DNA of 64,000 nt from Candidatus Staskawiczbacteria bacterium RIFOXYB1_FULL_38_37. GTDB lineage: Bacteria; Patescibacteriota; Minisyncoccia; Minisyncoccales; Staskawiczbacteraceae. Both the position numbers and the translations under genes were made by a program. The notes beneath the pieces are model-generated. The model was not told the DNA's origin and ran no database searches. It saw only the letters and a program-made list of their open reading frames with translations. This document shows positions 9,286 to 58,863 of this stretch, piece by piece. The stretch covers positions 9,437 through 73,436 of the forward strand of contig MHPK01000003.1 in assembly GCA_001822075.1 (NCBI GenBank). The letters run 5' to 3'. Every line of letters starts with the position of its first letter. Positions within the stretch are counted from its first letter, which is position 1.

Positions 9286-9516
9286 CAAGAGGAGTAATCC
9301 TCGTGTCGTTAATTAAAACGACAAACTACTTACGCCACTAGCATGCAGCCGGTGGCGTTTGTGGTTTATGAAACTAGCAAATGCAAAAATTGAATGGATT
9401 GCATGGATTATTAGCAACCAATTTGGTTGCTTGAAGGACTTTTGTATCGAGTGGGAAAAGATTCAAATTAATAGGTTGGTTGTGCCGCCGATTCCGAAAG
9501 GATCGGCGGTTTTGTT
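9286..9516 (+). ncRNA. candidate structured transcript (or mRNA of a 54-aa ORF 9368..9532) upstream of the recombinase
   Basis: Follows a strong promoter. Hairpins: GAGGA-GTAA-TCCTC, GTCGTT/AACGAC, CGCCAC/GTGGCG, ATGCAA/TTGCAT, AGCAACC/GGTTGCT. Ends in a GAAA-looped hairpin plus T-run. Confidence 0.3.
9485..9516 (+). terminator. intrinsic terminator/attenuator hairpin
   Basis: CCGCCGAT(T)CC-GAAA-GGATCGGCGG followed by TTTTGTT; ends 3 nt before the recombinase ATG. Confidence 0.55.
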
Positions 9517-9518
9517 AT

Positions 9519-10421
9519 ATGAAACTATATGATGGGATAAAACAATTTAATCAGTGGCGGGCGCTAAAGGTGAAACGCATAGACGGATATGACCTTGATT
9601 TGAGGCAGTTTTGCATATTCGTAGGCAACAAGGAAATTGAGGACGTAACAATTCAAGAGATAGTGGCTTGGCTTGGCTGGTATAAAAAACTGGATTTTGC
9701 CGCTTGGACTGTGCTGAAAAAGGCAATGGCTCTGCGTAAATTCTTTGAGTACTATGGCAGAATGAAATTTGATGTTGTGGATTACTGGTTAATTCCAATG
9801 CCACGGAAGGAGTTTACAATGCCCCGTGTCTGCACAGAGCAGACGTATAGGCAACTATTAAGCGTTATACCAAAGAAAAGCACGACCTATTATCATCTAC
9901 GAAATAGGTGTTTGATAAATCTTGTTTGGGACACCGGAGCAAGGCTGGGTGAAATTGTCGCCTTGAACACGGGTGACTTGGATCTAAAAAATCATTCAAT
10001 AGTTATTAAAACGGAAAAGAGCCGAGGAATGCGACCATTCAGAAAAATACCTTACGGAAAAGAAAGTGCGGTTTCGATGAGAAAATGGATGAGAAAACGA
10101 ACGGAAATTGCGAAAGAGCGGGATTTGCCACAACCGGAAGCTTTGTTTATTGGACTGAAAGGCGGCAGTGGCATCGCCGGCAGAAGATTGGCAATGTGTG
10201 CGGCCGGAGAAATATTTAGAAAATATTCAAACAAAGCCGGCCTGCCGTACGTGAATGCACACTCGCTTAGGCATCACTTCGGCACGGATCTGGCCAAAAG
10301 GGGATTCAATAATTCGTTAATTTCAGAGGCACTGGGCCACAGCCAGCTGTCGTCATCATTCCAGTATACGCAAGTAAATAATGAGGATCTTGAGTTCGCA
10401 TTGCGAAAAAGGTTGAATTAA
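9519..10421 (+). CDS. tyrosine site-specific recombinase / integrase (XerC/D-like)
   Basis: N-terminal SAM-like domain; catalytic pattern ARLGEI (R), HSLRHHF (HxxR), LGHS (H), FQYTQ (Y); ATG 9519 used because the TTG 9480 extension lies in the hairpin. Confidence 0.85.
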   Translation: MKLYDGIKQFNQWRALKVKRIDGYDLDLRQFCIFVGNKEIEDVTIQEIVAWLGWYKKLDFAAWTVLKKAMALRKFFEYYGRMKFDVVDYWLIPMPRKEFTMPRVCTEQTYRQLLSVIPKKSTTYYHLRNRCLINLVWDTGARLGEIVALNTGDLDLKNHSIVIKTEKSRGMRPFRKIPYGKESAVSMRKWMRKRTEIAKERDLPQPEALFIGLKGGSGIAGRRLAMCAAGEIFRKYSNKAGLPYVNAHSLRHHFGTDLAKRGFNNSLISEALGHSQLSSSFQYTQVNNEDLEFALRKRLN

Positions 10422-27033: not shown

Positions 27034-27669
27034 ATGATTTATCCGAATTTTAGTGAAGAAAAAAAGTTGTGGAAAAAGGGATATAAGTTGGTTGCAGGAT
27101 TAGATGAAGCCGGCAGAGGCCCTTTGGCTGGGCCAGTTGTGGCTGCGGCCGTAATTTTTAATTTTAAATTTCCAAATAAATTTTTAATTAAACAATTTCC
27201 AATGATAAAAGATTCCAAAAAAATGACAGTTAAACAACGGGAAGCTACGTATGAATTTTTGACTAATCACCCGGATATAAAGTGGGGAGTGGGCATAGTT
27301 TCAGAAAAAGTTATAGATAAAATAAATATTTTAGAAGCCACAAAACTGGCAATGAAAAAAGCAGTCGGTGGGGTGTCGGACACCCCACCGGACTTTTTGC
27401 TTTTAGACGGGAATTTTAAATTAGAGAATATTAATTTGCCGCAAAAAAGCATTATAAAAGGGGATTCAAAAGTTTTTTCAATTTCTGCCGCTTCCATTAT
27501 AGCAAAGGTGACGCGGGACAGAATAATGCAGAAATACCATAAAAAATATCCTGAATATAATTTTTTAAAACATAAGGGATATGGCACAAAAGCTCATTTT
27601 GCCAGCTTGCAAAAATTCGGGCCGTGTAAAATACACAGAAAAAGTTTTTACCCCGTTAAATTTTGTTGA
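27034..27669 (+). CDS. rnhB: ribonuclease HII
   Basis: GLDEAGRGPLAGPVV and LLLDGN motifs. Confidence 0.9.
   Translation: MIYPNFSEEKKLWKKGYKLVAGLDEAGRGPLAGPVVAAAVIFNFKFPNKFLIKQFPMIKDSKKMTVKQREATYEFLTNHPDIKWGVGIVSEKVIDKINILEATKLAMKKAVGGVSDTPPDFLLLDGNFKLENINLPQKSIIKGDSKVFSISAASIIAKVTRDRIMQKYHKKYPEYNFLKHKGYGTKAHFASLQKFGPCKIHRKSFYPVKFC
27366..27391. repeat. 26-nt GC-rich palindrome CGGTGGGGTGTCGGACACCCCACCGG, in frame in rnhB
   Basis: 12-bp arms; codon-checked translation GGVSDTPP; identical copy at 33897-33922. Confidence 0.9.
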
Positions 27670-33549: not shown

Positions 33550-34095
33550 ATGCTTACAATAAGATTAACAAGAAAAGGTAAAAAAAATCAGCCGTTTTTC
33601 AGGGTGGTTTTAATAGACAAAAGGAGGTCTGCCAAAGGCGGAAGGGCTGTTGAGGCGCTTGGAAATGTTGACCCTCTTACAAAAAGAAAAAATTTAAAAA
33701 AAGACAGAATTTTATACTGGATTTCAAAGGGAGCGCAAACTTCAGACACAGTGCATAATTTGTTGATTTCTGAAAAAATTATAGAAGGCAAGAAAATTCA
33801 TGTTTCAAAATTAAGCAAGAAGAAACAGGCAGACCTGGCTGCGCAGGCAGGTCTGGCTGCGCAGGCAGGAATAGCCAAAGAAAAATCCGCAAAAAGCGGT
33901 GGGGTGTCGGACACCCCACCGGCTAAAGAGTCAAAAACAGCAGAAGCAAAAGCCCTAGAAACCGGAGCTCCGGTTGAAATACTGCCAGCCCCAGTTGAAC
34001 CAGCCGCGGCTGAAACTCCAGCAGAACCCGAAAAACCGGCAGAACCCGCCTCCGCTGAAAGCTCCGGCGAGGCAAAGCAGCCCCCAACAGCATAA
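33550..34095 (+). CDS. rpsP: ribosomal protein S16 with ~100-aa repeat-built C-terminal extension
   Basis: MLTIRLTRKGKKNQPFFRVV start; Ala/Glu/Pro-rich tail. Confidence 0.9.
   Translation: MLTIRLTRKGKKNQPFFRVVLIDKRRSAKGGRAVEALGNVDPLTKRKNLKKDRILYWISKGAQTSDTVHNLLISEKIIEGKKIHVSKLSKKKQADLAAQAGLAAQAGIAKEKSAKSGGVSDTPPAKESKTAEAKALETGAPVEILPAPVEPAAAETPAEPEKPAEPASAESSGEAKQPPTA
33827..33871 (+). repeat. 18-nt direct repeat x2.5 (CAGGCAGRYCTGGCTGCG) in the rpsP tail
   Basis: Codon-checked: encodes QADLAAQAGLAAQAG; CAGACCTG and CAGGTCTG are reverse complements. Confidence 0.85.
33897..33922. repeat. second copy of the 26-nt palindrome, in frame in rpsP
   Basis: Identical to 27366-27391; translates GGVSDTPP. 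Confidence 0.9.
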
Positions 34096-34978: not shown

Positions 34979-35008
34979 AGCGTTATTATAAATCAACGCT
35001 TTTTGTTT
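34979..35008 (+). terminator. intrinsic terminator
   Basis: AGCGTT ... AACGCT followed by TTTTTG. Confidence 0.6.
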
Positions 35009-35013
35009 TCTGG

Positions 35014-35087
35014 CATAACACATAACATAGAACACATAACAAAAAACTCCGTCGTTTTGTTCCATGTTTTATGTTCCATGTTCCATG
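35014..35087 (+). repeat. heptad-repeat element copy A (CATAACA-type arm, spacer, ATGTTCC-type arm)
   Basis: CATAACACATAACATAGAACACATAACA ... TTTTGTTCCATGTTTTATGTTCCATGTTCCATG; its last ATG is the trmD start. Confidence 0.85.
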
Positions 35088-35825
35088 ATAAAGTTTGATA
35101 TTATTACAATTTTTCCGGAAATTTTTAAGTCCTATTTAGGCGAGAGTTTAATTGCGCGGGCGCAGAAAAAAAAGCTTATAAAAATAAATATTCATAATTT
35201 AAGAAAATGGACAAATGACAGCCATAAAACTGTTGATGACAGGCCGTTTGGCGGGGGATTGGGAATGGTTCTAAAAGTAGAACCAATTTTTAAAGCAGTA
35301 AAACAAATAAAAAAAAGTCCCGCCGCAGCGGGATCCCGCTATGGCGGGACAAAAGTAATTTTATTTACTCCGCGCGGAAAAAAGTTTGACCAAAAATTAG
35401 CTAATAAGCTTTCTAAATTAGACCAAATAATTTTTATTTGCGGAAGATACGAGGGCGTTGATGAAAGGGTGGCAAAAAAAATAGCTGACATGGAAATTTC
35501 AATTGGAGACTACGACTTAATGGGCGGGGAATTGCCAGCTATGGTGGCAATAGAAACAATTTCCAGATTAATTCCAGGAGTTTTGGGCAAGCCCCAATTA
35601 TTAAAAGAGAGAATAACAAAATCCGGCGGATTTATTGAATATGCCCAATACACCCGCCCGCCAAAATTTTTTGTTAACCTGCCAAAATTTCAAAAGAAAT
35701 TTAGAGGGGCAAAAAAATTTAGGCGGGCGAAGCCCGAAGTTTGGTCTGTCCCTAGAGTGCTCTTGTCTGGAGACCACAAAAAAATAGAGGAATGGAAAAA
35801 AAAGCATAACAAAATCATTGAATAA
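35085..35825 (+). CDS. trmD: tRNA (guanine37-N1)-methyltransferase
   Basis: FDIITIFPEIF, GRYEGVDERV, GGELPAMV motifs; ATG 35085 is aa 8 of the track ORF. Confidence 0.95.
   Translation: MIKFDIITIFPEIFKSYLGESLIARAQKKKLIKINIHNLRKWTNDSHKTVDDRPFGGGLGMVLKVEPIFKAVKQIKKSPAAAGSRYGGTKVILFTPRGKKFDQKLANKLSKLDQIIFICGRYEGVDERVAKKIADMEISIGDYDLMGGELPAMVAIETISRLIPGVLGKPQLLKERITKSGGFIEYAQYTRPPKFFVNLPKFQKKFRGAKKFRRAKPEVWSVPRVLLSGDHKKIEEWKKKHNKIIE
35317..35350. repeat. 34-nt GC-rich nested palindrome in frame in trmD
   Basis: GTCCCGCC-GC-AGCGGGATCCCGCT-AT-GGCGGGAC; codon-checked translation SPAAAGSRYGGT in the variable loop before KVILFTPRG. Confidence 0.85.
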
Positions 35826-35857: not shown

Positions 35858-35940
35858 GGGCGTGTGGCTGAGCAGCAAAGGCATCAGACTGTAAATCTGA
35901 CGAGGTCTCCTCTTCGCAGGTGCAAGTCCTGCCGCGCCCA
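35858..35940 (+). tRNA. tRNA-Tyr (GTA), long variable arm, no encoded CCA
   Basis: Acceptor GGGCGTG/CGCGCCC, anticodon arm TCAGA-CTGTAAA-TCTGA, variable-arm stem GAGG/CCTC, T-arm GCAGG-TGCAAGT-CCTGC (G at position 55 is non-canonical). Confidence 0.8.
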
Positions 35941-35984: not shown

Positions 35985-36056
35985 GCCGATGTAGCTCAGT
36001 GGCAGAGCAACTCCATGGTAAGGAGTAGGTCGCCGGTTCAAATCCGGCCATCGGCT
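35985..36056 (+). tRNA. tRNA-Thr (GGT)
   Basis: Acceptor GCCGATG/CATCGGC, D-arm GCTC-AGTGGCA-GAGC, anticodon arm ACTCC-ATGGTAA-GGAGT, T-arm GCCGG-TTCAAAT-CCGGC. Confidence 0.9.
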
Positions 36057-36063
36057 CAAAATA

Positions 36064-36138
36064 CATAACACATAACATAGAACATATAACAGCACGATTT
36101 TTTCGTTTTGTTCCATGTTCCATGTTTCATGTTCCATG
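36064..36138 (+). repeat. heptad-repeat element copy B
   Basis: CATAACACATAACATAGAACATATAACA ... TTTTGTTCCATGTTCCATGTTTCATGTTCCATG; ends 5 nt before the rpmG ATG. Confidence 0.85.
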
Positions 36139-36142
36139 ATGG

Positions 36143-36304
36143 ATGGCGGCAAAAAAACCATTTTTAAAGATGCAATGCTCTGTTTGCAAAACAACAAACT
36201 ATTTTACAAAAAAGAGCAAAGCAACAGCAGAAAAAAAACTTGAGCTTAAAAAGTTTTGCAAAAAGTGCAAAAAACACACCATGCACAAAGAAGGCAAGAG
36301 ATAA
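36143..36304 (+). CDS. rpmG: ribosomal protein L33
   Basis: Own reading (53 aa, below track cutoff): MAAKKPFLKMQCSVCKTTNYFTKKSKATAEKKLELKKFCKKCKKHTMHKEGKR; two CxxC pairs, LELKKFC..C.KHT.HKE signature. Confidence 0.85.
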   Translation: MAAKKPFLKMQCSVCKTTNYFTKKSKATAEKKLELKKFCKKCKKHTMHKEGKR

Positions 36305-36401: not shown

Positions 36402-38111
36402 ATGTTAACTGAAATTATAATTGTAATTGTATTTATAATATTGGCTGTTATTTTGGCAGTTGAGCTTTTTATTTTCTTTAAAAACAAAAAACTGGCGCAG
36501 GATTTGCAAAATAGGGAAGAGTCAGCAAAGTATAAAATGTATGAAATTGAAATTTTAAACAGGCTTTCAGAAAAAACAGGCTATTCTTTAAGCGCGCAGA
36601 ATGTTGTTGAAGTTATAATAGAGTCTTTGCCTGATTTGATTGACTATAGTTGCGCCTCATATATGCTTTTTTTGCCCGAAAAAATAAATTTTAGGGTTTA
36701 TCTCAAAAATTCTGTTTCCGGAGAATTTGTGGAAGAAGTAAAGTTAAAAATGTTAGAATCCTCGCCGGTTGATTTTAAAAATAAAAAAGTAGACCAGATG
36801 CTTTGGGGCGCTGATATGAGCGCAGAAATAGAAGATTCTGTTGGCTCTTTTTTAAATATTCCCTTGGTAATATCTGGAAAAACCGTGGGCTATTTTTCTC
36901 TAGCTGACGCAAGGCCTAATTTTTTCAAAGAAAAAGAGATTTTAGCTGTAACCGAGATAGCAAAAAGAGCAACGGATGCATTTACAAAGCTCCAAGATGC
37001 TGTTGAATCTGAAAACAACAAAATGAATTCTTTGGTTTCAAGCATGACAGACGGCGTGCTCATGACAGACATGGATTACAGGCTTCTTGTGGTAAATTCA
37101 GCCGCCCGCAGGGCGGCCGGCCTTGAAAATAAGGCAGACTTGTCAGTGCTGGATTTTGCAGAAAGCTTGAAAGAAAAGTTTGATTTAAAAGATAAAATTG
37201 AAGAAAGCATCAGGCTTGATAAAGTTTTTACGTCAGAAGAGTTTTCAAGAAACGTTGGCTTTTTTAAAGTTTTGGTGTCTTCTGTAAGAGACAAGTACAA
37301 ACCCTTAGGTTGCGTGGTTGTTTTCCGCGACATTACAAAAGAAAAAGAAATAGAACAAATTAAAGAAGATTTTATCTCTATGATAGTGCACGAACTCCGC
37401 TCTCCGTTAGATTCAATTAAAAAAATGATAGAATTAATGAGGGCTGCAGAAATGAAAAAAGCAAAAAGGCAAGAGTGCTATCAGATGATACACAGCAGCT
37501 CTTCTGATATGTTAGAGCTTGTTAACAATCTTTTGGACATGGCCAAAATTGAAGCTGGCAAGTTTGAGCTTAAAAAACAAACGTCTAATATTGCAGAAAT
37601 AATTAAGACCCGCGTTTTGTTTTTTGACATATCAGCTAAAGATGCTAAAGTTAAAATAACAAGCCAACTTGGAGCTGGCATTCCAGACAAAGTTGAGTTT
37701 GACCCGCACACAATTTCGCAAGTTTTGAACAATCTTATTTCCAACGCTATAAAATTTAACAAAGAAAACGGCGCAATCCAAATTCAAGCATTATTTCATA
37801 AAAAAGGAGCCAGTCTACAAAAAGAAGCAGTGGACTCTGGCATTGACTGGTTTATTAAAAAAGACATAAATATTCCAGACTCATTGTTTGTGGCAGTAAC
37901 AAACACAGGCGAGGGCATAGCCGAAGAGCAGATAAACAAGCTTTTTAACAAATTTGTTCAGGTAAAAACCGTTTTTGCCAAAAAAGGAGGAACAGGACTT
38001 GGCCTGGCAATTACAAAAAGCATTATTGAATCTCACGGAGGCGTTGTTGGGGCAGATTCTGTTGAAGGCCATGGAGCAACATTTTATTTTACGTTGCCTG
38101 TAAAACAATAA
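36402..38111 (+). CDS. sensor histidine kinase (TM, GAF/PAS-like, HisKA, HATPase)
   Basis: N-terminal TM helix; H-box HELRSPL; N/G boxes NLISNAIKFN, GTGLGLAI. Confidence 0.9.
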   Translation: MLTEIIIVIVFIILAVILAVELFIFFKNKKLAQDLQNREESAKYKMYEIEILNRLSEKTGYSLSAQNVVEVIIESLPDLIDYSCASYMLFLPEKINFRVYLKNSVSGEFVEEVKLKMLESSPVDFKNKKVDQMLWGADMSAEIEDSVGSFLNIPLVISGKTVGYFSLADARPNFFKEKEILAVTEIAKRATDAFTKLQDAVESENNKMNSLVSSMTDGVLMTDMDYRLLVVNSAARRAAGLENKADLSVLDFAESLKEKFDLKDKIEESIRLDKVFTSEEFSRNVGFFKVLVSSVRDKYKPLGCVVVFRDITKEKEIEQIKEDFISMIVHELRSPLDSIKKMIELMRAAEMKKAKRQECYQMIHSSSSDMLELVNNLLDMAKIEAGKFELKKQTSNIAEIIKTRVLFFDISAKDAKVKITSQLGAGIPDKVEFDPHTISQVLNNLISNAIKFNKENGAIQIQALFHKKGASLQKEAVDSGIDWFIKKDINIPDSLFVAVTNTGEGIAEEQINKLFNKFVQVKTVFAKKGGTGLGLAITKSIIESHGGVVGADSVEGHGATFYFTLPVKQ

Positions 38112-41786: not shown

Positions 41787-44700
41787 ATGGAAAAAGATAA
41801 GTTGAACGTCGCTAAAAGAATCTTTGTAAAGCTCAATGTTTTGCTGCTGATTTTTGGTTTCTTGTTTCAGCCGCCAGCTGGCGTTTTTGCGCAAAACGAA
41901 ACAAATGAAAAGCCGCCCACTTCTATACAAATAAGCGATAAGGCCGACAAAACAAAAACCCAGCTTGATAAAGCGCTTGAAGAGGTTCAGCCTAAAGACG
42001 AAAATAAAAATTTTGAGAAAGAGCAGAGCCAAGAAGATTCTTCAGCCGCAGAGCCTGTAGAGCAAGCCTCTGCCGTCGAGGACGAAAAAACTTCTAATTC
42101 AAACCGCATAACTATTGATGTTGATTATGCGACAGGCGCTTTTTCATATAAATATAAGCTTGACATTCCTGCTGGGCGCAATAGCTTAAACCCTATAATA
42201 GATTTAAAATATAATTCCGAAGATAAAAACAATGCCTCGGAAATAGGTTTTGGGTGGTCTTTGTCTATTCCAAAAATTAAAAGGCTCAATAAAAGGGGAG
42301 TTAATTTGCTGTATGAAAGCAACGATTTTTATTCATCGCTCTCTGGCGAACTCGAAAAAATATCCGAAAGCGCTTTTGGCGCAAAAATTGATGATGGCTC
42401 AATGTTGGATTACCAATTAAACAATAATGTTTGGACAGTTACAGCAAAGGATGGAACAAAATATATATTTGGCGGAGAGACGTCTGCCATGCTTGAAGAC
42501 CCTTCTGATTTGTCAAAGGTTTACGAATGGTATTTAAGCAGAATTGAAGACACAAACGGAAATTTTATTTCATACAATTATTATGATGACACAGCCAACA
42601 ACGTTGTTTACCCCGATTCGATTACTTACACAAATTATGGCGGAAGCGCAGGTATTTATGAAATTGATTTTATAAAAGAGGCAAGGCCAGATGAATATTT
42701 TAGTTATGCTCCCGGATTTTTAACAAAGACAACAAAAAGAACTGCCCAAATTCAAGTTTTAACCAATGGATTATGGACTAGAAAATATGTATTAGGATAT
42801 GAACAGGGCGATAATGGTTACCGCTCCATGCTCAATTCTGTAACTGAATACGGCAGAGATGAAGCGGGTGCAATAACCGCTTTGCCCGAAATGAGCATGT
42901 TATACAGCGCAGGAGAAAACAGCTTAGTTAATAACAGCAATAATAATTTTCCATGGCCCGAATCTCAAAACCAGCCGGCCTCTCCTTTTTCTCTTGCCGA
43001 CGGATATCTGCGCGTAATGGATTTAAACGGCGACGGATTAAAAGACATCGCCAAATCATACAATATCCAGATAAACGGAATTGATAAGCCGGTATTTTGG
43101 GTTTTGGTTAACACCGGCCACGGCTGGGCGCAAGACACCAGCTGGACCCAGCCTATTTACTCTTTTGTTGATGGACAGGGCAGAACCATTGAAGGAAAAT
43201 TTGTTTTTTCAGGAATTGACACAGGAGATTGGAATGGAGACGGTAAAGATGACTTAATCAGGTTTTGGAGAGAAGACTTGGGCGGAGGCAGGGATTTGCA
43301 GCACGTTGTGGTTCTTTTGAATAATGGCTCTGGTTGGACGCAAGATAAAAATGTTTCAATTGATAATATTACATATTCTAATGCTTGTACTGGCGGCAGC
43401 ATATATATTATGTCTGGAAATTCGGGCGGACGTTTTGTTGATTTAAACGGCGATGGTTTTTTAGATTATGTTTATGCTTATAATATACAAATCAATGGCG
43501 TACACTGTCCGATATTTGCAGTGCTTTACAATGAAGGAGGAAACTTAAAATGGGACCAAAGCGTTACTGTGCCCTGGGTAAATAATGGCTCTGGCAGCGC
43601 CCCGCTTTCCCTAAACGACAGCATAAAAGCTCTTGATTTAAACGGCGATGGTTTGCTTGATTTTATATGGGCCTTGGATAACTCCAATCCTTATTTTTGG
43701 GTTTTGATAAACACCGGCCACGGCTGGGCGCAAGACACCAGCTGGACCCAGCCCACATACACATATTTAAGTCCATCAGGGGCTCCTCAAAATGGATACT
43801 TCATAACTTCGTCTGGAGCTGGCTGGCGGCCCATGGAAATAAATGGGGATAATTTGGTTGATTTTGTGAGACTTTGGACCATTGACATCGGAGGCGGGCA
43901 TTCAGTTGGCCGAAGCGCTGTTTTGGTTAACACCGGCCACGGCTGGGCGCAAAACGATTCTCTGCTTGCTGTTGGCAATTATACGGCCAGCAATAACGCA
44001 ACTGGCTATCCTATAACAACTAAAATGTCAGCAACCATAATTTTTGATGCTAATGGCGATGGAATGGACGACATAATGCATACAGCAGTTTCGCAGACAA
44101 ACGGAGTTTATGATGTAACAGACTGGCTTATGCAAAATACAGGGCATTCTGCCAATCTTGTAGAAAAAATAACTCTTCCTGAAGGCGGAAACTTTTCGTT
44201 TGATTATAAGGCAAGCACAAGCTACACAGACCAATCTGGCAATCTTTTAAACCCAAATCTTCCAATAACCTATAACACATTAAAATCTGTAACAAGTAAC
44301 GATGGCTTTGGAAATCAGGCAGTTACAACTTACGAATATGCAGATGGAAGCTATTTTTATAATAACGTCTATGACCGCAGGTTTGCCGGATACGGAAAAA
44401 TTACAGTTCAAGACCCTGTTGGCAATAAAACTATAATTTATAATCATTTAGGCAATGGCTTGCAGGCGGGAGAAACGGGTTCTGACCCGGCTGACGGAAG
44501 CTTAATAGGCAAAGCTTACAAAACGCAACGTTATGATGCTTCAGGAAACCTGTTTTCTGAAGCATATACAGATTGGGTGAGTTATGATTTAGGAAATAAT
44601 AGAGATTTTACGTATAAGGCAAAAGAAGTGTCCAATGAATCCGGAAAACAGAGCGCTGTTGAATATATTTATAATACAACCACAGGAAATTTAACAAACC

Positions 44701-48412: not shown

Positions 48413-48578
48413 GTTAAAGGGGTCAGGTACCTTTGATTGTCATTCTAATCGTGATACACTTAATTAATGCCAAGGGTTTTACGAGTATAAGGGTTAAGGG
48501 GAGGGTTAAGGGGTCAGGTACCTTTGATTGTCATTCTAATCGTGATACACTTAATTAATGCCAAGGGTTTTACGAGTA
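48413..48578 (+). repeat. tandem duplication (75 + 74 nt, ~92-nt period) of the RayT left end
   Basis: GTTAA(A)GGGGTCAGGTACCTTTGATTGTCATTCTAATCGTGATACACTTAATTAATGCCAAGGGTTTTACGAGTA occurs twice. Copy 2 carries the real ATG (48558). In copy 1 the same ATG is followed by a stop after 7 codons. Confidence 0.9.
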
Positions 48579-49245
48579 GATATTGGAAATCAAATTTACC
48601 ATGTCCTTAATCGGGCAAATGCCCGTTTGCCGATTTTTTTTAAAGAACAAGATTATCAGTTGTTTGAGAACATTCTTGAAAATGGCCGTGAAAAGTTTGA
48701 TATGCGTATTTTAGCTTACTGCTTGATGCCGAATCATTTTCACTTAGTCTTGCAACCTAAGGAAGATGGCGGTTTGCAAAGGTTTATGCAGTGGGCGACC
48801 TTAACACACACGCAACGTTGGCACAGCCAAAACAAAACCATAGGCTCGGGGCACCTGTATCAGGGCAGATACAAATCGTTTATCATACAAGAAGACAACC
48901 ACTTATTGGCAGTCATCAGATATGTGGAGCGCAACCCGCTCCGAGTTAATATTGTCAAACAAGCAGAAGATTGGCGCTTTTCAAGTTTGTACCGCAGGAT
49001 GTTTCCAAAAGAATTTAAAATGCATAAAAGAATTTTGTCAGACCTGCCGATTGATATGCCCAAAGATTATCTCGCTTTTGTTAACCAACCGCAAACAAAC
49101 GAAGAAATCGCGGCTATACGTTATTCGGTTAACCGCGGCAGACCTTTTGGCAATTGTGAGTGGGCTGATAAAATTATTAAGGCGTTCGGGCTTGAATCAA
49201 CCGTACGGAGCAGGGGCAGGCAAATCAAAGGTACCTGACCCCTTT
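48416..49245 (+). mobile_element. RayT gene bracketed by 23-bp inverted repeats
   Basis: AAAGGGGTCAGGTACCTTTGATT (48416-48438, and one A shorter at ~48508-48529) versus its exact reverse complement AATCAAAGGTACCTGACCCCTTT (49223-49245); each holds the AGGTACCT palindrome. Confidence 0.65.
48558..49238 (+). CDS. REP-associated / IS200-like Y1 (HUH) tyrosine transposase (RayT-like)
   Basis: YHVLNRANARLPIF, HUH motif LMPNHFHLVL, catalytic-Tyr region IRYVERNPL. Confidence 0.85.
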   Translation: MPRVLRVDIGNQIYHVLNRANARLPIFFKEQDYQLFENILENGREKFDMRILAYCLMPNHFHLVLQPKEDGGLQRFMQWATLTHTQRWHSQNKTIGSGHLYQGRYKSFIIQEDNHLLAVIRYVERNPLRVNIVKQAEDWRFSSLYRRMFPKEFKMHKRILSDLPIDMPKDYLAFVNQPQTNEEIAAIRYSVNRGRPFGNCEWADKIIKAFGLESTVRSRGRQIKGT

Positions 49246-49336
49246 GTTTGACCCCTTTGTTCGACCCCCCCTTTGTTCGACCCCTTTGTTCCTTTGTTCT
49301 TTGTTCCCTTCTTTGTTCCCTTTGTTCCTTTGTTCA
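49238..49336 (+). repeat. degenerate pyrimidine-rich short tandem repeats (GACCCCTTTGTT decaying to CCTTTGTT)
   Basis: Read directly; directly upstream of the 49340 promoter. Confidence 0.8.
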
Positions 49337-57750: not shown

Positions 57751-58863
57751 ACATAGGTAACACCCCCATTTTACCAAAAACTGGTAAGATTAGGACAAAT
57801 GTTAACTTATCTCATCAACATGGTATATGAAACCTATTGGGCCGCCCTCAAACGGGCACAAGCCCCTTTTGATAAAGCAGTTCACTGGCGCAAAGTCGCC
57901 AAAGCATTAAAGCTAAGCCAAAAAGCCTGCGGTCGTCTTGAATGGATGATATTTTATCAATTCACAGCAGAGAACAACGCCTCTTTAACCTGTCGTCATT
58001 TCGGCATCAACCGCAAGCTCTTTTACACATGGCTTAGCCGTTTCGACGATTCTAATTTAAAAACCCTGGAAGACAAAGACAAAGCTCCAAAACATGTCAG
58101 GCAAAAAGAAATTACGCAGACAGAAGAGAGCAGGATAATTGAATTAAGAAAGAAATATATCCGTTGGGGTAAAATCAAACTGAAAACTCTTTACAAAAAC
58201 ATTTATTCAGAAGAAATCTCTTCGTGGAAAATCCAATACACAATTAAGAAATACAAGTTGTATTACCACCCGATAAAAAACGAAAAGATGCAAAAGAAAA
58301 GGAAGCGAAACCAAAAGAAGAAACGCATTACCGAACTTGCAAAGAAACAACAGCCGGGCTTCCTCATCAGTTTTGATACCATTGTGATATACTGGAATGG
58401 GATAAAGAGATATATATTCACCGGCATTGATTCCGTCTCCAAAGTTGCTTTTGCCAGGATGTACACAACCAAATCTTCTTACAACGCTCGAGATTTCCTT
58501 CAAAGAATGCATTATCTGCTTGAAGGGAAGATGTTGAATGCCGGACACGATAACGGATCTGAATTCTGCAAGCTGTTTCAACAACAACTAAAAGAACTTG
58601 ACATTACCCAGTATCTTTCCAGGCCGCACACTCCGACAGACAATCCGGTTTGCGAGAAATTCAACCAAACCTTGCAACAAGAATTCATTGACCTCGGCAA
58701 CTTCACGCCCGACTGCGCAGAATTCAACCGTTTGCTTACCGAGTGGTTGATAGAATACAACTTTGTCAGACCCCACCAAGCGCTCGGATATTCAACGCCA
58801 ATACAATTTACCGAGAAAACATTAAAAGTGTTACCTATGTGGCCGTCTCGTGCAAGACCTTGA
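57751..58863 (+). mobile_element. IS481-like insertion sequence
   Basis: 13-bp terminal inverted repeat ACATAGGTAACAC (57751-57763) / GTGTTACCTATGT (58828-58840) around a DDE transposase whose stop lies just beyond the right repeat; no target duplication seen. Confidence 0.6.
57799..58863 (+). CDS. DDE transposase, integrase-core (rve) type, IS481-like
   Basis: N-terminal HTH; DTIVIYW..., HDNGSEF, NPVCEKFNQTLQQEF (D, D, E), YNFVRPHQALGYSTP. Confidence 0.85.
   Translation: MLTYLINMVYETYWAALKRAQAPFDKAVHWRKVAKALKLSQKACGRLEWMIFYQFTAENNASLTCRHFGINRKLFYTWLSRFDDSNLKTLEDKDKAPKHVRQKEITQTEESRIIELRKKYIRWGKIKLKTLYKNIYSEEISSWKIQYTIKKYKLYYHPIKNEKMQKKRKRNQKKKRITELAKKQQPGFLISFDTIVIYWNGIKRYIFTGIDSVSKVAFARMYTTKSSYNARDFLQRMHYLLEGKMLNAGHDNGSEFCKLFQQQLKELDITQYLSRPHTPTDNPVCEKFNQTLQQEFIDLGNFTPDCAEFNRLLTEWLIEYNFVRPHQALGYSTPIQFTEKTLKVLPMWPSRARP

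What the first reader, a model, noticed from the sequence alone, without database searches (positions are those of the whole stretch)
35317..35350. Second family of in-frame GC-rich palindrome, inside trmD
GTCCCGCC-GC-AGCGGGATCCCGCT-AT-GGCGGGAC has an 8-bp outer stem and a 7-bp inner perfect palindrome. It translates as SPAAAGSRYGGT in the variable loop preceding KVILFTPRGKKFDQ. Its sequence is unrelated to the GGVSDTPP element, but the behaviour is the same: a GC-rich hairpin, in frame, in a housekeeping gene, in a tolerant loop. Two families raise the odds of a general mechanism.
Basis: partly seen in the sequence, partly recalled or inferred. Interest (0 to 1): 0.6.

Follow-up and report, generated by a model that had tools for sequence, protein, structure and literature searches.

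The report
Double-hairpin repeat inserted in trmD
The GC-rich palindrome inside trmD is real: it is one copy of a previously undescribed 32-base "double-hairpin" repeat found between genes and, in frame, in flexible loops of several housekeeping genes of CPR bacteria (ultra-small, uncultured bacteria). It resembles the selfish palindromic elements of Rickettsia and of yeast mitochondria.

Summary
Window 35317-35350 is a 34-nt palindrome in frame in trmD (SPAAAGSRYGGT), unique in the window and far more stable than shuffled sequence.

It is better described as two tandem 16-nt hairpin units, TCCCGC-N4-GCGGGA (35318-35333 and 35334-35349). I call this a double hairpin (DH).

The same DH, with identical stems and free loop bases, occurs in 63 loci of the genome collection and 40 metagenome loci. 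Most copies are intergenic. Several lie in frame at linkers, loops or tails of RuvA, UvrD, a GuaA-like protein, a MiaB-like protein, an RluA-type synthase, a probable ArgRS and TrmD, using all three reading frames. A tRNA-Gln fragment shows a clean 32-nt insertion with no target duplication.

In five trmD orthologues, all 8 stem codons are identical while synonymous sites elsewhere are near saturation (P about 4e-7). TrmD's two surface loops in this clade hold many unrelated hairpin inserts. GC-rich hairpins in the window's coding sequences exceed a codon-shuffle null (12 against 4.5).

Best reading: a tolerated insertion of a dispersed, selfish palindromic repeat, kept intact at the nucleotide level. 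How it moves is unknown. A REP-associated tyrosine transposase (RAYT)-like gene lies 13 kb away, but I could not link it to the DH. I class this as a new variant of a known kind.

The parts
35318..35349 (.). 32-nt double-hairpin (DH) core: TCCCGCC-GCA-GCGGGA|TCCCGC-TAT-GGCGGGA
   Evidence: The core is shared, with identical stems, by all copies found in the collection scans. The 32-nt boundaries come from the clean insertion into a tRNA-Gln fragment in L092.
35318..35333 (.). Hairpin unit 1: TCCCGC-CGCA-GCGGGA (6-bp stem, 4-nt loop)
   Evidence: The loop bases vary among orthologues while the stem does not.
35334..35349 (.). Hairpin unit 2: TCCCGC-TATG-GCGGGA
35317..35350 (.).
   Evidence: G at -1 and C at +1 are the commonest flanking bases among 41 unique copies.
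35316..35351 (+). The twelve codons AGT...ACA, encoding SPAAAGSRYGGT
   Evidence: In the AlphaFold model this stretch is a coil between helix 65-75 and strand 89-95, with pLDDT below 50 for residues 79-86.
35085..35825 (+). Host gene trmD (tRNA m1G37 methyltransferase). The start is taken at MIKFD, as in the homologues.
   Evidence: Homologues carry PF01746 and one is 100% identical over 246 aa. Solved TrmD structures match at E = 1.7e-50.
35309..35316 (+). A8 run of Lys codons directly upstream of the element. On the minus strand it forms a T8 tail behind the hairpin.
   Evidence: The minus-strand site is flagged as terminator-like.
35724..35736 (+). Second, unrelated small GC hairpin CGGGCGAAGCCCG in trmD loop 2 (encodes RRAKPE), showing that this gene has two hairpin hot spots
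48558..49238 (+). RAYT-like Y1 (HUH) transposase gene. It is only a candidate enzyme for moving hairpin elements; no link to the DH was shown.
   Evidence: Pfam Y1_Tnp at 61.5 bits. NCBIfam REP_Tyr_transpos at 73.2 bits, below the 80-bit cut-off. It is flanked by 23-nt inverted repeats that are not the DH.

Best explanation
The palindrome is one copy of a dispersed, non-coding, GC-rich repeat. The repeat is a 32-nt double hairpin (DH) made of two units, TCCCGC-N4-GCGGGA. It entered the disordered surface loop between a helix and a strand of TrmD.

The copy persists for two reasons. The fixed part of the element has no stop codon in any frame. In this frame it encodes a short Pro/Ala/Gly/Ser/Arg peptide that a flexible loop tolerates. 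The protein therefore carries it as a passenger.

**Shown**
- The DH is a family: identical stems in many genomes and contexts.
- It lies between genes and in frame within genes.
- In one case it is a clean 32-nt insertion with no target-site duplication.
- Its stems are held constant at synonymous sites while the loop bases drift.

**Inferred**
- The trmD copy descends from one old insertion, accompanied by small indels in the flanking A-runs to restore the frame.
- The stems are maintained either by selection on the element or by self-templated correction among its four equivalent arms.
- Copies spread as a folded single-stranded DNA hairpin handled in trans by a structure-specific enzyme. 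An HUH/Y1 transposase of the REP-associated (RAYT) or IS200/IS605 type is the leading candidate, and one is encoded in this window. This last step is the weakest.
For: **Same element elsewhere.** There are 63 genome-collection loci and 40 metagenome loci, against fewer than about 2 expected by chance on my own rough composition estimate, which was not run as a tool. The element is multi-copy in two Lentisphaeria metagenome-assembled genomes, where it is the core of a MITE-like repeat of about 105 nt. It is also present in Verrucomicrobia, Omnitrophota and many Patescibacteria.

**In-frame copies in other proteins.**
- RuvA: the linker before domain III.
- UvrD: exactly between the two Pfam domains.
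- GuaA-like protein: between the GATase and PP-loop domains.
- MiaB-like protein: a loop within the radical-SAM domain.
- RluA-type pseudouridine synthase.
- A probable ArgRS: the N-terminus. This was recognised from sequence motifs only and was not scanned against Pfam.
- DsbD_2 and PHP proteins: the C-terminal tails.

All three reading frames are used.

**Clean insertion.** In L092, GCCGGGTCGTCTAATGG[32 nt]TAGGACA compares with the intact tRNA-Gln sequence ...TAATGGTAGGACA. Of 41 unique copies, 34 have no flanking direct repeat at all.

**Nucleotide-level constraint.** All 8 stem codons are identical in five trmD orthologues. Outside the element, only 10 of 64 four- or six-fold degenerate codons with an invariant amino acid are identical in all five (P about 3.6e-7). 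Only the two internal trinucleotides vary.

**Tolerant site.**

**General excess of hairpins in coding sequence.** Other TrmD loop inserts are also hairpins.

**Candidate enzyme.** A RAYT-like gene lies in the window. Homologues lie on two other DH-bearing CPR contigs.
Against: - No enzyme is linked to the DH. The window's RAYT-like gene is flanked by a different inverted repeat, and none of the Lentisphaeria loci shows a Y1 motif.
- No target-site consensus appears beyond a weak TTG...CAA flank preference.
- Copy number in CPR genomes is low: 1 in this 64-kb window and 1-2 exact copies per genome in the scan. That is unlike a proliferating element.
- A 32-nt insertion cannot be in frame on its own. 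The net length differences from DH-free alleles are +21 nt (L117), +24 nt (L007) and +6 nt (RuvA), so extra indels or a replacement-type event must be assumed.
- Perfect stem conservation at saturated synonymous divergence is more than a decaying selfish passenger would show. It leaves room for a function.
- The collection scans required exact stems, so the apparent invariance across phyla is partly by construction.
Confidence: 0.68

Rival explanations
1. The double hairpin is a functional cis-acting signal kept by selection where it sits. It could be a recognition site for a conserved DNA- or RNA-binding protein. It could instead act as an RNA structure that pauses ribosomes, stabilises the mRNA, or terminates antisense transcription.
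For: - The stems are perfectly conserved at synonymous sites in five trmD orthologues whose other synonymous sites are near saturation.
- The sequence of the stems is conserved, not merely their pairing, and this holds across phyla.
- The RNA hairpin is very stable at -28.4 kcal/mol.
- On the minus strand the hairpin is followed by C plus T8 and is flagged as terminator-like.
Against: - The same element sits in unrelated genes, in three reading frames, in protein tails and between genes, with no common neighbour.
- Most intergenic copies have a T-run before and an A-run after the hairpin, the wrong order for a terminator on either strand.
- The T8 tail is specific to this allele; other trmD alleles have mixed A/G flanks.
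- Closest relatives do without the element: a TrmD 92% identical, and the minimal-loop forms.
- At least two RuvA copies carry a change that breaks a stem (PTK variants).
Confidence: 0.2
2. The peptide SPAAAGSRYGGT is a selected loop of TrmD, and the palindrome is a by-product of Ala, Gly, Ser and Arg codons being reverse complements of each other.
For: The loop is present in several TrmD lineages with the conserved residues P-A-x-A-G-S-R-x-G-G. GCG GGA and TCC CGC are reverse complements, which can be seen directly in the sequence.
Against: - Codon choice is fixed at all 8 stem codons despite free synonymous alternatives, and several are minority codons in this genome.
- The same DNA occurs in two other reading frames and outside genes.
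- The two residues encoded by the internal trinucleotides vary freely: A/T/K and Y/P/K/L.
- The insert is modelled as disordered and is absent from the nearest relatives.
Confidence: 0.03
3. Independent, recurrent insertions of an active element into a preferred target in trmD, so the stems look conserved only because each copy is young.
For: The six DH-bearing TrmD sequences are scattered on a loop-masked neighbour-joining tree. The nearest relatives of the window's protein lack the element (92% identical P0002). The same 24-nt tRNA fragment carries the DH at two different positions in different lineages.
Against: - All five sequenced trmD copies sit at exactly the same nucleotide and in the same frame, yet no target consensus exists elsewhere.
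- A 32-nt insertion would need the same frame-restoring change each time.
- The tree is a quick NJ tree of a short protein, without support values.
Confidence: 0.07
4. Chance, or an assembly artefact.
For: None beyond the general tendency of GC-rich codons to pair.
Against: No shuffle reaches the observed match or stability. The identical protein is recorded on 36 contigs from several sources. The element recurs in independent assemblies.
Confidence: 0.01

Closest known systems
Rickettsia palindromic elements (RPE)
   Same: They are non-coding palindromic repeats that are often inserted in frame into unrelated housekeeping genes. They add a peptide at positions compatible with the protein fold, and they also occur between genes (review PMC10969869, read).
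   Different: RPEs are about 100-150 bp, occur dozens of times per genome, fall into ten families and are confined to Rickettsia. The DH is 32 nt, present in one or a few copies per CPR genome, and found in several phyla. Sequence similarity to RPEs was not tested.
Mobile GC clusters of yeast mitochondria (for example GC42), and the double-hairpin elements of Allomyces mitochondria
   Same: They are short GC-rich hairpin elements in an AT-rich genome. Their stems are conserved well below the synonymous rate while their loops vary, and no linked transposase is known (PMC4478555, read, which also cites Paquin et al. 2000 for the double-hairpin elements).
   Different: They are organellar. GC42 is 42 nt and is associated with an AG target dinucleotide. 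Most copies are intergenic. There is no sequence relationship to the DH.
REP / REPIN elements mobilised by REP-associated tyrosine transposases (RAYT)
   Same: They are short imperfect palindromes, often arranged as doublets that fold into a longer hairpin. They are presumed to move as single-stranded DNA without target duplication (PMC3116915, abstract seen; the rest is from my general knowledge of REP/RAYT). A RAYT-like gene is present in the window.
   Different: The DH has no conserved GTAG head. It is not mostly extragenic, is not high-copy in CPR genomes, and does not flank the RAYT-like gene.
MITEs, including IS200/IS605-derived palindrome-associated elements
   Same: They are small, non-autonomous and palindromic. 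In Lentisphaeria the DH is embedded in a repeat of about 105 nt with imperfect terminal inverted repeats.
   Different: There is no target-site duplication, no parent insertion sequence has been identified, and at 32 nt the DH is far below the usual size of a MITE.
Coding palindromes in mitochondrial genes of Nematomorpha
   Same: They are inverted repeats embedded in frame in protein-coding genes (PMC6649704, abstract seen).
   Different: They are up to 284 bp, gene-specific and organellar. They are not a dispersed family sharing one sequence.

Membership tests
REP/REPIN-RAYT system | Short imperfect palindrome (about 20-40 nt), often as a doublet that folds into a longer hairpin | tested here: met
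   Two 16-nt hairpin units fold either separately (about -20.6 kcal/mol) or as one long hairpin (-28.4 kcal/mol).
REP/REPIN-RAYT system | Conserved GTAG-type tetranucleotide at the 5' end of each REP | tested here: not met
   The flanks of 41 unique copies show only a weak TTG...CAA preference and no GTAG. GTAG does appear next to single CCCGC-N4-GCGGG hairpins in Verrucomicrobia loci.
REP/REPIN-RAYT system | The cognate RAYT gene is flanked by its own REP sequences | tested here: not met
   The RAYT-like ORF at 48558-49238 is flanked by the inverted repeat AAAGGGGTCAGGTACCTTTGATT, not by the DH. In L083 the RAYT-like gene is flanked by hairpins with a GTCGGAC loop, not by the DH.
REP/REPIN-RAYT system | Tens to hundreds of copies per genome, overwhelmingly extragenic | tested here: not met
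   There is one copy in this 64-kb window, and 1-2 exact copies per CPR genome in the collection scan. A large share of CPR copies lie within genes. Whole genomes could not be read.
Rickettsia palindromic elements | In-frame insertion in unrelated ORFs at structurally tolerant positions | tested here: met
   Found in TrmD, RuvA, UvrD, GuaA-like, MiaB-like, RluA-type and probable ArgRS proteins, and in DsbD_2 and PHP tails. The TrmD insert is modelled as a coil.
Rickettsia palindromic elements | Length of about 100-150 bp, and homology to one of the ten RPE families | tested here: not met
   The length is 32-34 nt. Homology to RPE sequences was not tested because no RPE sequence was available in the tools.
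MITE | Terminal inverted repeats plus a target-site duplication | tested here: not met
   The insertion into the tRNA-Gln fragment is clean, with no duplication. Of 41 copies, 34 have no flanking direct repeat.
IS200/IS605-type single-strand elements (palindrome-associated elements) | A hairpin at each end, no target duplication, and insertion next to a specific tetra- or pentanucleotide | tested here: inconclusive
   Two hairpins and no duplication fit. No specific target sequence is seen, and the element ends at the feet of the hairpins with no guide sequence.
Intrinsic (Rho-independent) terminator | GC-rich hairpin followed directly by a T-run on the transcribed strand | tested here: not met
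   On the trmD sense strand the hairpin is followed by ACAAAAG. The minus strand does fit in this allele only. Intergenic copies are typically T-run, hairpin, A-run.
Known RNA families (Rfam) | A match to a curated covariance model | tested here: not met
   No family matches at the DH in the window or in 17 related loci. There are only weak sub-threshold hits at E of 0.1 or more.

The most novel reading that the evidence does not exclude
The 32-nt double hairpin is not merely selfish DNA. It is a conserved recognition signal shared by Patescibacteria, the PVC phyla (here Lentisphaeria and Verrucomicrobia) and Omnitrophota, read by a still unidentified structure-specific DNA or RNA enzyme. It is held under nucleotide-level purifying selection even inside essential genes. 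CPR genomes then accommodate the signal by placing it in protein linkers.
Probability: 0.2. Interest if true: 0.8.

Novelty: new variant of a known kind. Interest (0 to 1): 0.6.

Why it matters
It shows that the reduced, AT-rich genomes of CPR bacteria carry tiny GC-rich hairpin elements that enter essential genes in frame. This explains part of the puzzling length variation and the Ala/Gly/Pro/Ser/Arg-rich stretches seen in loops of their proteins.

It provides a bacterial counterpart, outside Rickettsia, to two known cases: the Rickettsia palindromic elements and the mitochondrial GC clusters.

It offers a sharply defined 32-nt substrate with which to look for the enzyme that moves or maintains such elements.

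In practice, these inserts can mislead alignments and phylogenies of marker genes, and they are useful presence/absence markers.

Tried and rejected
- **More copies in the window.** Searches for the whole element within 3 mismatches, a single unit within 1 mismatch, and half-sites all found only the trmD copy.
- **Rfam.** Gathering-threshold and E-value scans of the window and 17 loci found only tRNAs, 6S RNA and LOOT RNA elsewhere.
- **Phage origin.** There was a single hit in 2.9 million viral contigs, in a GC-rich context, so I rejected this.
- **A linked gene.** All-against-all clustering of ORFs within 1.2 kb of DH copies found no recurrent neighbour apart from orthologous loci. The only transposase- or nuclease-type gene among them is the GIY-YIG ORF of the dnaX / GIY-YIG / tRNA-Gln locus. 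A GIY-YIG motif search of the window found nothing. A Y1 transposase motif scan of all loci hit only two CPR contigs.
- **Variants with compensatory stem changes.** A structure-only scan of 776 kb of fetched sequence found only decayed canonical copies. The test is underpowered because the loci were fetched using exact stems.
- **Codon-choice probability given the peptide.** The value is 1e-7.9. This is not informative on its own, so I replaced it with the synonymous-conservation and codon-shuffle tests.
- **Exact path of the trmD insertion.** The nearest DH-free alleles (L117, L118) differ by several indels or by a replaced segment, so the path cannot be reconstructed.
- **Literature.** Four full-text searches, including one for the core sequence string, found no description of this element or of palindromic inserts in CPR genes.
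- **Link to the GGVSDTPP hairpin.** It has no copy in any fetched locus and a different architecture.

Full report
**The observation**

The window is AT-rich, about 37% GC. TrmD from this window is 100% identical to a protein annotated from a Candidatus Staskawiczbacteria genome (Patescibacteria, also called the Candidate Phyla Radiation or CPR). That identical protein is recorded on 36 contigs from several sources.

The reported sequence GTCCCGCCGCAGCGGGATCCCGCTATGGCGGGAC is at 35317-35350. It lies in frame in trmD (35085-35825). Codons 35316-35351 read SPAAAGSRYGGT, directly before KVILFTPRGKKFDQ.

The element is unique in the window, and no shuffle of the window produces anything within three mismatches. 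As RNA it folds at -28.4 kcal/mol (z = -7.3, 0 of 200 shuffles as stable). As DNA it folds at -15.7 kcal/mol (z = -5.8).

**Anatomy**

The element is best read as two adjacent 16-nt units, TCCCGC-N4-GCGGGA, at 35318-35333 and 35334-35349. Each unit is itself a hairpin. The pair can therefore fold in two ways:
- as one long hairpin with a small internal loop, which is the minimum-energy fold in every copy tested;
- as two 6-bp hairpins, at about -20.6 kcal/mol.

I call it a double hairpin (DH).

**The loop of TrmD**

Among 120 TrmD clusters that are 71-100% identical, the segment after KAVKQIKK ranges from a minimal KQIKKSKKAKVI to inserts of 20-30 residues. A second loop, after YTRPE.F, behaves the same way.

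The inserts fall into recurring types: LRQAQGK, IRNPKFEIRN, TPxxRRxGV and SAKASAxRR in loop 1, and FRRA[KSR]PEVW, ACPPKSS and CPTPGVGRKTPGV in loop 2. They combine in a mosaic fashion.

Seven clusters carry the DH type, SPA[AT]AGSR[YKLP]GGT. At the DNA level, other inserts are also hairpins. Examples are CACTCCTAC...GTAGGAGTG in L114 and a fold of -29 kcal/mol in loop 2 of L115.

A solved TrmD structure lacks 8 residues at this point. In an AlphaFold model (mean pLDDT 66) the insert is a coil between helix 65-75 and strand 89-95, with pLDDT below 50 for residues 79-86.

**Nucleotide-level conservation**

I fetched DNA for four other DH-bearing trmD genes and compared them with the window.
- The stems are identical in all five, third codon positions included.
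- The two internal trinucleotides differ: GCA/TAT, ACA/CCT, GCA/AAA, AAG/CTT, ACA/TAT.
- Flanking synonymous sites differ freely.

Outside the element, only 10 of 64 four- or six-fold degenerate codons with an invariant amino acid are identical in all five genes. Within the stems the figure is 8 of 8 (P about 3.6e-7). These five genes were found through whole-protein similarity, not through the DNA pattern, so this test carries no ascertainment bias.

**A dispersed family**

- A scan of one genome per species for CCCGC-N4-GCGGGATCCCGC-N4-GCGGG gave 63 loci. By my own rough composition estimate, which was not run as a tool, chance would give fewer than about 2.
- At least 12 contigs in each of two Lentisphaeria genomes carry it. 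It is also in Verrucomicrobia, Omnitrophota and many Patescibacteria lineages. A few hits in high-GC actinomycete genomes are probably chance.
- A metagenome scan for the CPR-type variant gave 40 loci.
- A viral scan gave only one.
- In Lentisphaeria the DH is the core of a repeat of about 105 nt with imperfect terminal inverted repeats and two further hairpins.
- Single units are also common in the same loci. In Verrucomicrobia they sit next to GTAG, as REP (repetitive extragenic palindrome) sequences do.

**In-frame copies in other genes**

| Protein | Position of the DH |
|---|---|
| RuvA | linker before domain III, in several species |
| UvrD-type helicase | exactly between its two Pfam domains |
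| GuaA-like protein | between the GATase and PP-loop domains |
| MiaB-like radical-SAM enzyme | a loop within the domain |
| RluA-type pseudouridine synthase | within the domain |
| probable ArgRS (recognised from motifs only; no Pfam scan) | N-terminus |
| DsbD_2 membrane protein | C-terminal tail |
| PHP-domain protein | C-terminal tail |

All three reading frames are used: PAxAGSRxGGT, SRxxGIPxxRE and PPQRDPAxAG. The fixed part of the element contains no stop codon in any frame, which can be seen directly in the sequence.

**Element boundaries**

Upstream of a small GIY-YIG gene and an intact tRNA-Gln, several CPR contigs carry a 24-nt copy of the 5' end of that tRNA, interrupted by the DH.
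- In L092 the sequence is GCCGGGTCGTCTAATGG[32 nt]TAGGACA, against ...TAATGGTAGGACA in the intact tRNA. This is a clean 32-nt insertion with no target duplication.
- In another lineage the DH sits at a different position in the same fragment.
- Among 41 unique copies, 34 have no flanking direct repeat. The flanks show only a weak TTG...CAA preference, which extends the palindrome.

A 32-nt piece cannot be in frame by itself. The nearest DH-free trmD alleles differ by +21 nt (L117) and +24 nt (L007), and L118 has a replaced segment. In RuvA the net difference is only +6 nt. Extra indels or a replacement-type event must therefore be assumed, and I could not reconstruct the path.

**One insertion in trmD, or several?**

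On a loop-masked neighbour-joining tree without support values, the six DH-bearing TrmDs are scattered. The nearest relatives of the window's protein lack the element, including one that is 92% identical.

Against that, all five sequenced copies sit at the same nucleotide and in the same frame, and no target specificity is seen elsewhere. I therefore favour one old insertion followed by repeated overwriting of this hypervariable loop. If that is right, the stem conservation reflects a real constraint. Recurrent targeted insertion remains possible.

I took 54 long ORFs as stand-ins for coding sequences and shuffled synonymous codons within each gene.
- Hairpins with a perfect stem of 7 or more, at least 70% GC and a loop of 24 or less: 12 observed against 4.5 +/- 1.9.
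- Stems of 8 or more: 7 observed against 1.1 +/- 0.95.
- No shuffle out of 200 reached either observed value.

The refuting outcome did not occur.

**Mechanism**

Shown:
- The DH is a family.
- It lies both within and between genes.
- It ends precisely and makes no target duplication.
- Its stems are constant while its loops vary.

The loop bases are mostly unconstrained. Four of 29 distinct loop pairs are perfectly complementary, against 0.45 expected. That fits an origin as a perfect palindrome, or correction of one arm against another.

Inferred: the element spreads as a folded single strand, handled in trans.

The window encodes a REP-associated tyrosine transposase (RAYT)-like Y1 protein at 48558-49238. 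It scores 61.5 bits on Pfam Y1_Tnp, and 73.2 bits on NCBIfam REP_Tyr_transpos, just under that model's cut-off of 80. Homologues lie on two other DH-bearing CPR contigs.

However, this gene is flanked by a different 23-nt inverted repeat. In L083 the homologue is flanked by hairpins of the other family, the one with a GTCGGAC loop that includes the window's GGVSDTPP element. No Y1 motif appears in the Lentisphaeria loci. The enzyme that acts on the DH is therefore unknown.

**Rival explanations**

- **A functional signal selected in place** is the main rival. The strength of the stem conservation supports it, and so does the terminator-like configuration on the minus strand of this allele. Against it are the variety of contexts, the wrong order of T- and A-runs at most intergenic copies, and the absence of the element from close relatives.
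- **A selected peptide** is excluded by the fixed codon choice and by the copies in other frames and between genes.
- **Chance and assembly error** are excluded.

**Comparison with known systems**

The closest parallels are:
- the Rickettsia palindromic elements, which insert in frame into housekeeping genes (PMC10969869);
- the yeast mitochondrial GC clusters, short GC-rich hairpins in an AT-rich genome with conserved stems and variable loops (PMC4478555);
- REP/REPIN elements.

The DH fails the defining tests for membership of each:
- REP/RAYT: no GTAG head, not flanking the RAYT gene, low copy number.
- MITE: no target duplication.
- RPE: wrong length.

No Rfam family matches. Four literature searches found no description of it. 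I rate it a new variant of a known kind.

Noticed in passing
window 48558-49238 (+), with flanks 48416-48438, 49223-49245, 48417-48578 and 49241-49335: A REP-associated tyrosine transposase-like (Y1/HUH) gene. It is flanked by perfect 23-nt inverted repeats (AAAGGGGTCAGGTACCTTTGATT). There is also a 71-nt direct duplication that includes the gene's first codons, and a run of CCTTTGTTC-type tandem repeats downstream.
   Followed up: partly
window 27366-27390 (inside the RNase HII ORF 27034-27669) and 33897-33921 (S16 tail); L083 4692-4713, 4934-4957 and 5486-5507; L110 near 11534: The GGVSDTPP hairpin belongs to a family with a conserved GTCGGAC loop and variable stems, the opposite pattern to the DH. 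In L083 such hairpins flank a RAYT-like gene, and one lies in frame inside it. This family, rather than the DH, looks like the partner of that transposase.
   Followed up: partly
L092 1467-1845 (minus strand); also L048, L064, L079, L097, L103, L109: A conserved CPR locus next to dnaX. It contains a 24-nt 5' fragment of tRNA-Gln interrupted by the DH, then a small GIY-YIG nuclease ORF (truncated in L048), then an intact tRNA-Gln. The DH is at two different positions in the fragment in different lineages. The fragment of one lineage matches the intact tRNA of another.
   Followed up: partly
window 35676-35745 (trmD loop 2): The second variable loop of TrmD has an internal duplication (PKFFVNLPKFQKKF...KKFRRAKPE) and the hairpin CGGGCGAAGCCCG. 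Relatives carry other recurring inserts here (ACPPKSS, CPTPGVGRKTPGV, LRQGYGG).
   Followed up: partly
window 35318-35333, minus strand: On the strand antisense to trmD, the hairpin is followed by C plus T8 and is flagged as an intrinsic-terminator-like site. This depends on the A8 Lys-codon run of this allele and is weaker in the other trmD alleles.
   Followed up: partly
window 34990-35090 and about 36060-36200: Short degenerate repeats of the CATAACA / GTTCCATG type lie upstream of trmD, overlapping alternative start codons. Judging only from the translation of a minus-strand ORF, similar repeats also follow the two tRNA genes (35858-35940, 35985-36056). Comparable AT-rich mini-repeats flank DH copies in Saccharibacteria contigs (L020, L026), where they form larger inverted repeats around the DH.
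   Followed up: no
window 37101-37117, 33828-33870, and 43122-43153 with 43722-43753: Further GC-rich features inside ORFs. GCCGCCCGCAGGGCGGC lies in the histidine-kinase ORF. A tandem repeat encoding ADLAAQAGLAAQAG lies in the S16 tail. A duplicated hairpin occurs twice, 600 nt apart, in the 2062-aa ORF.
   Followed up: no
RuvA homologues P0126-P0240 and TrmD homologues: The same peptide types (for example SAKASA / KPASARG) recur in the RuvA linker and in TrmD loop 1 of different CPR genomes. This suggests that more short GC-rich cassettes are shared between unrelated proteins.
   Followed up: no
window 57799-58863 and 9480-10421: An rve-type integrase ORF and a tyrosine recombinase ORF. The latter has a GC hairpin (9485-9509) at its very start.
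   Followed up: no
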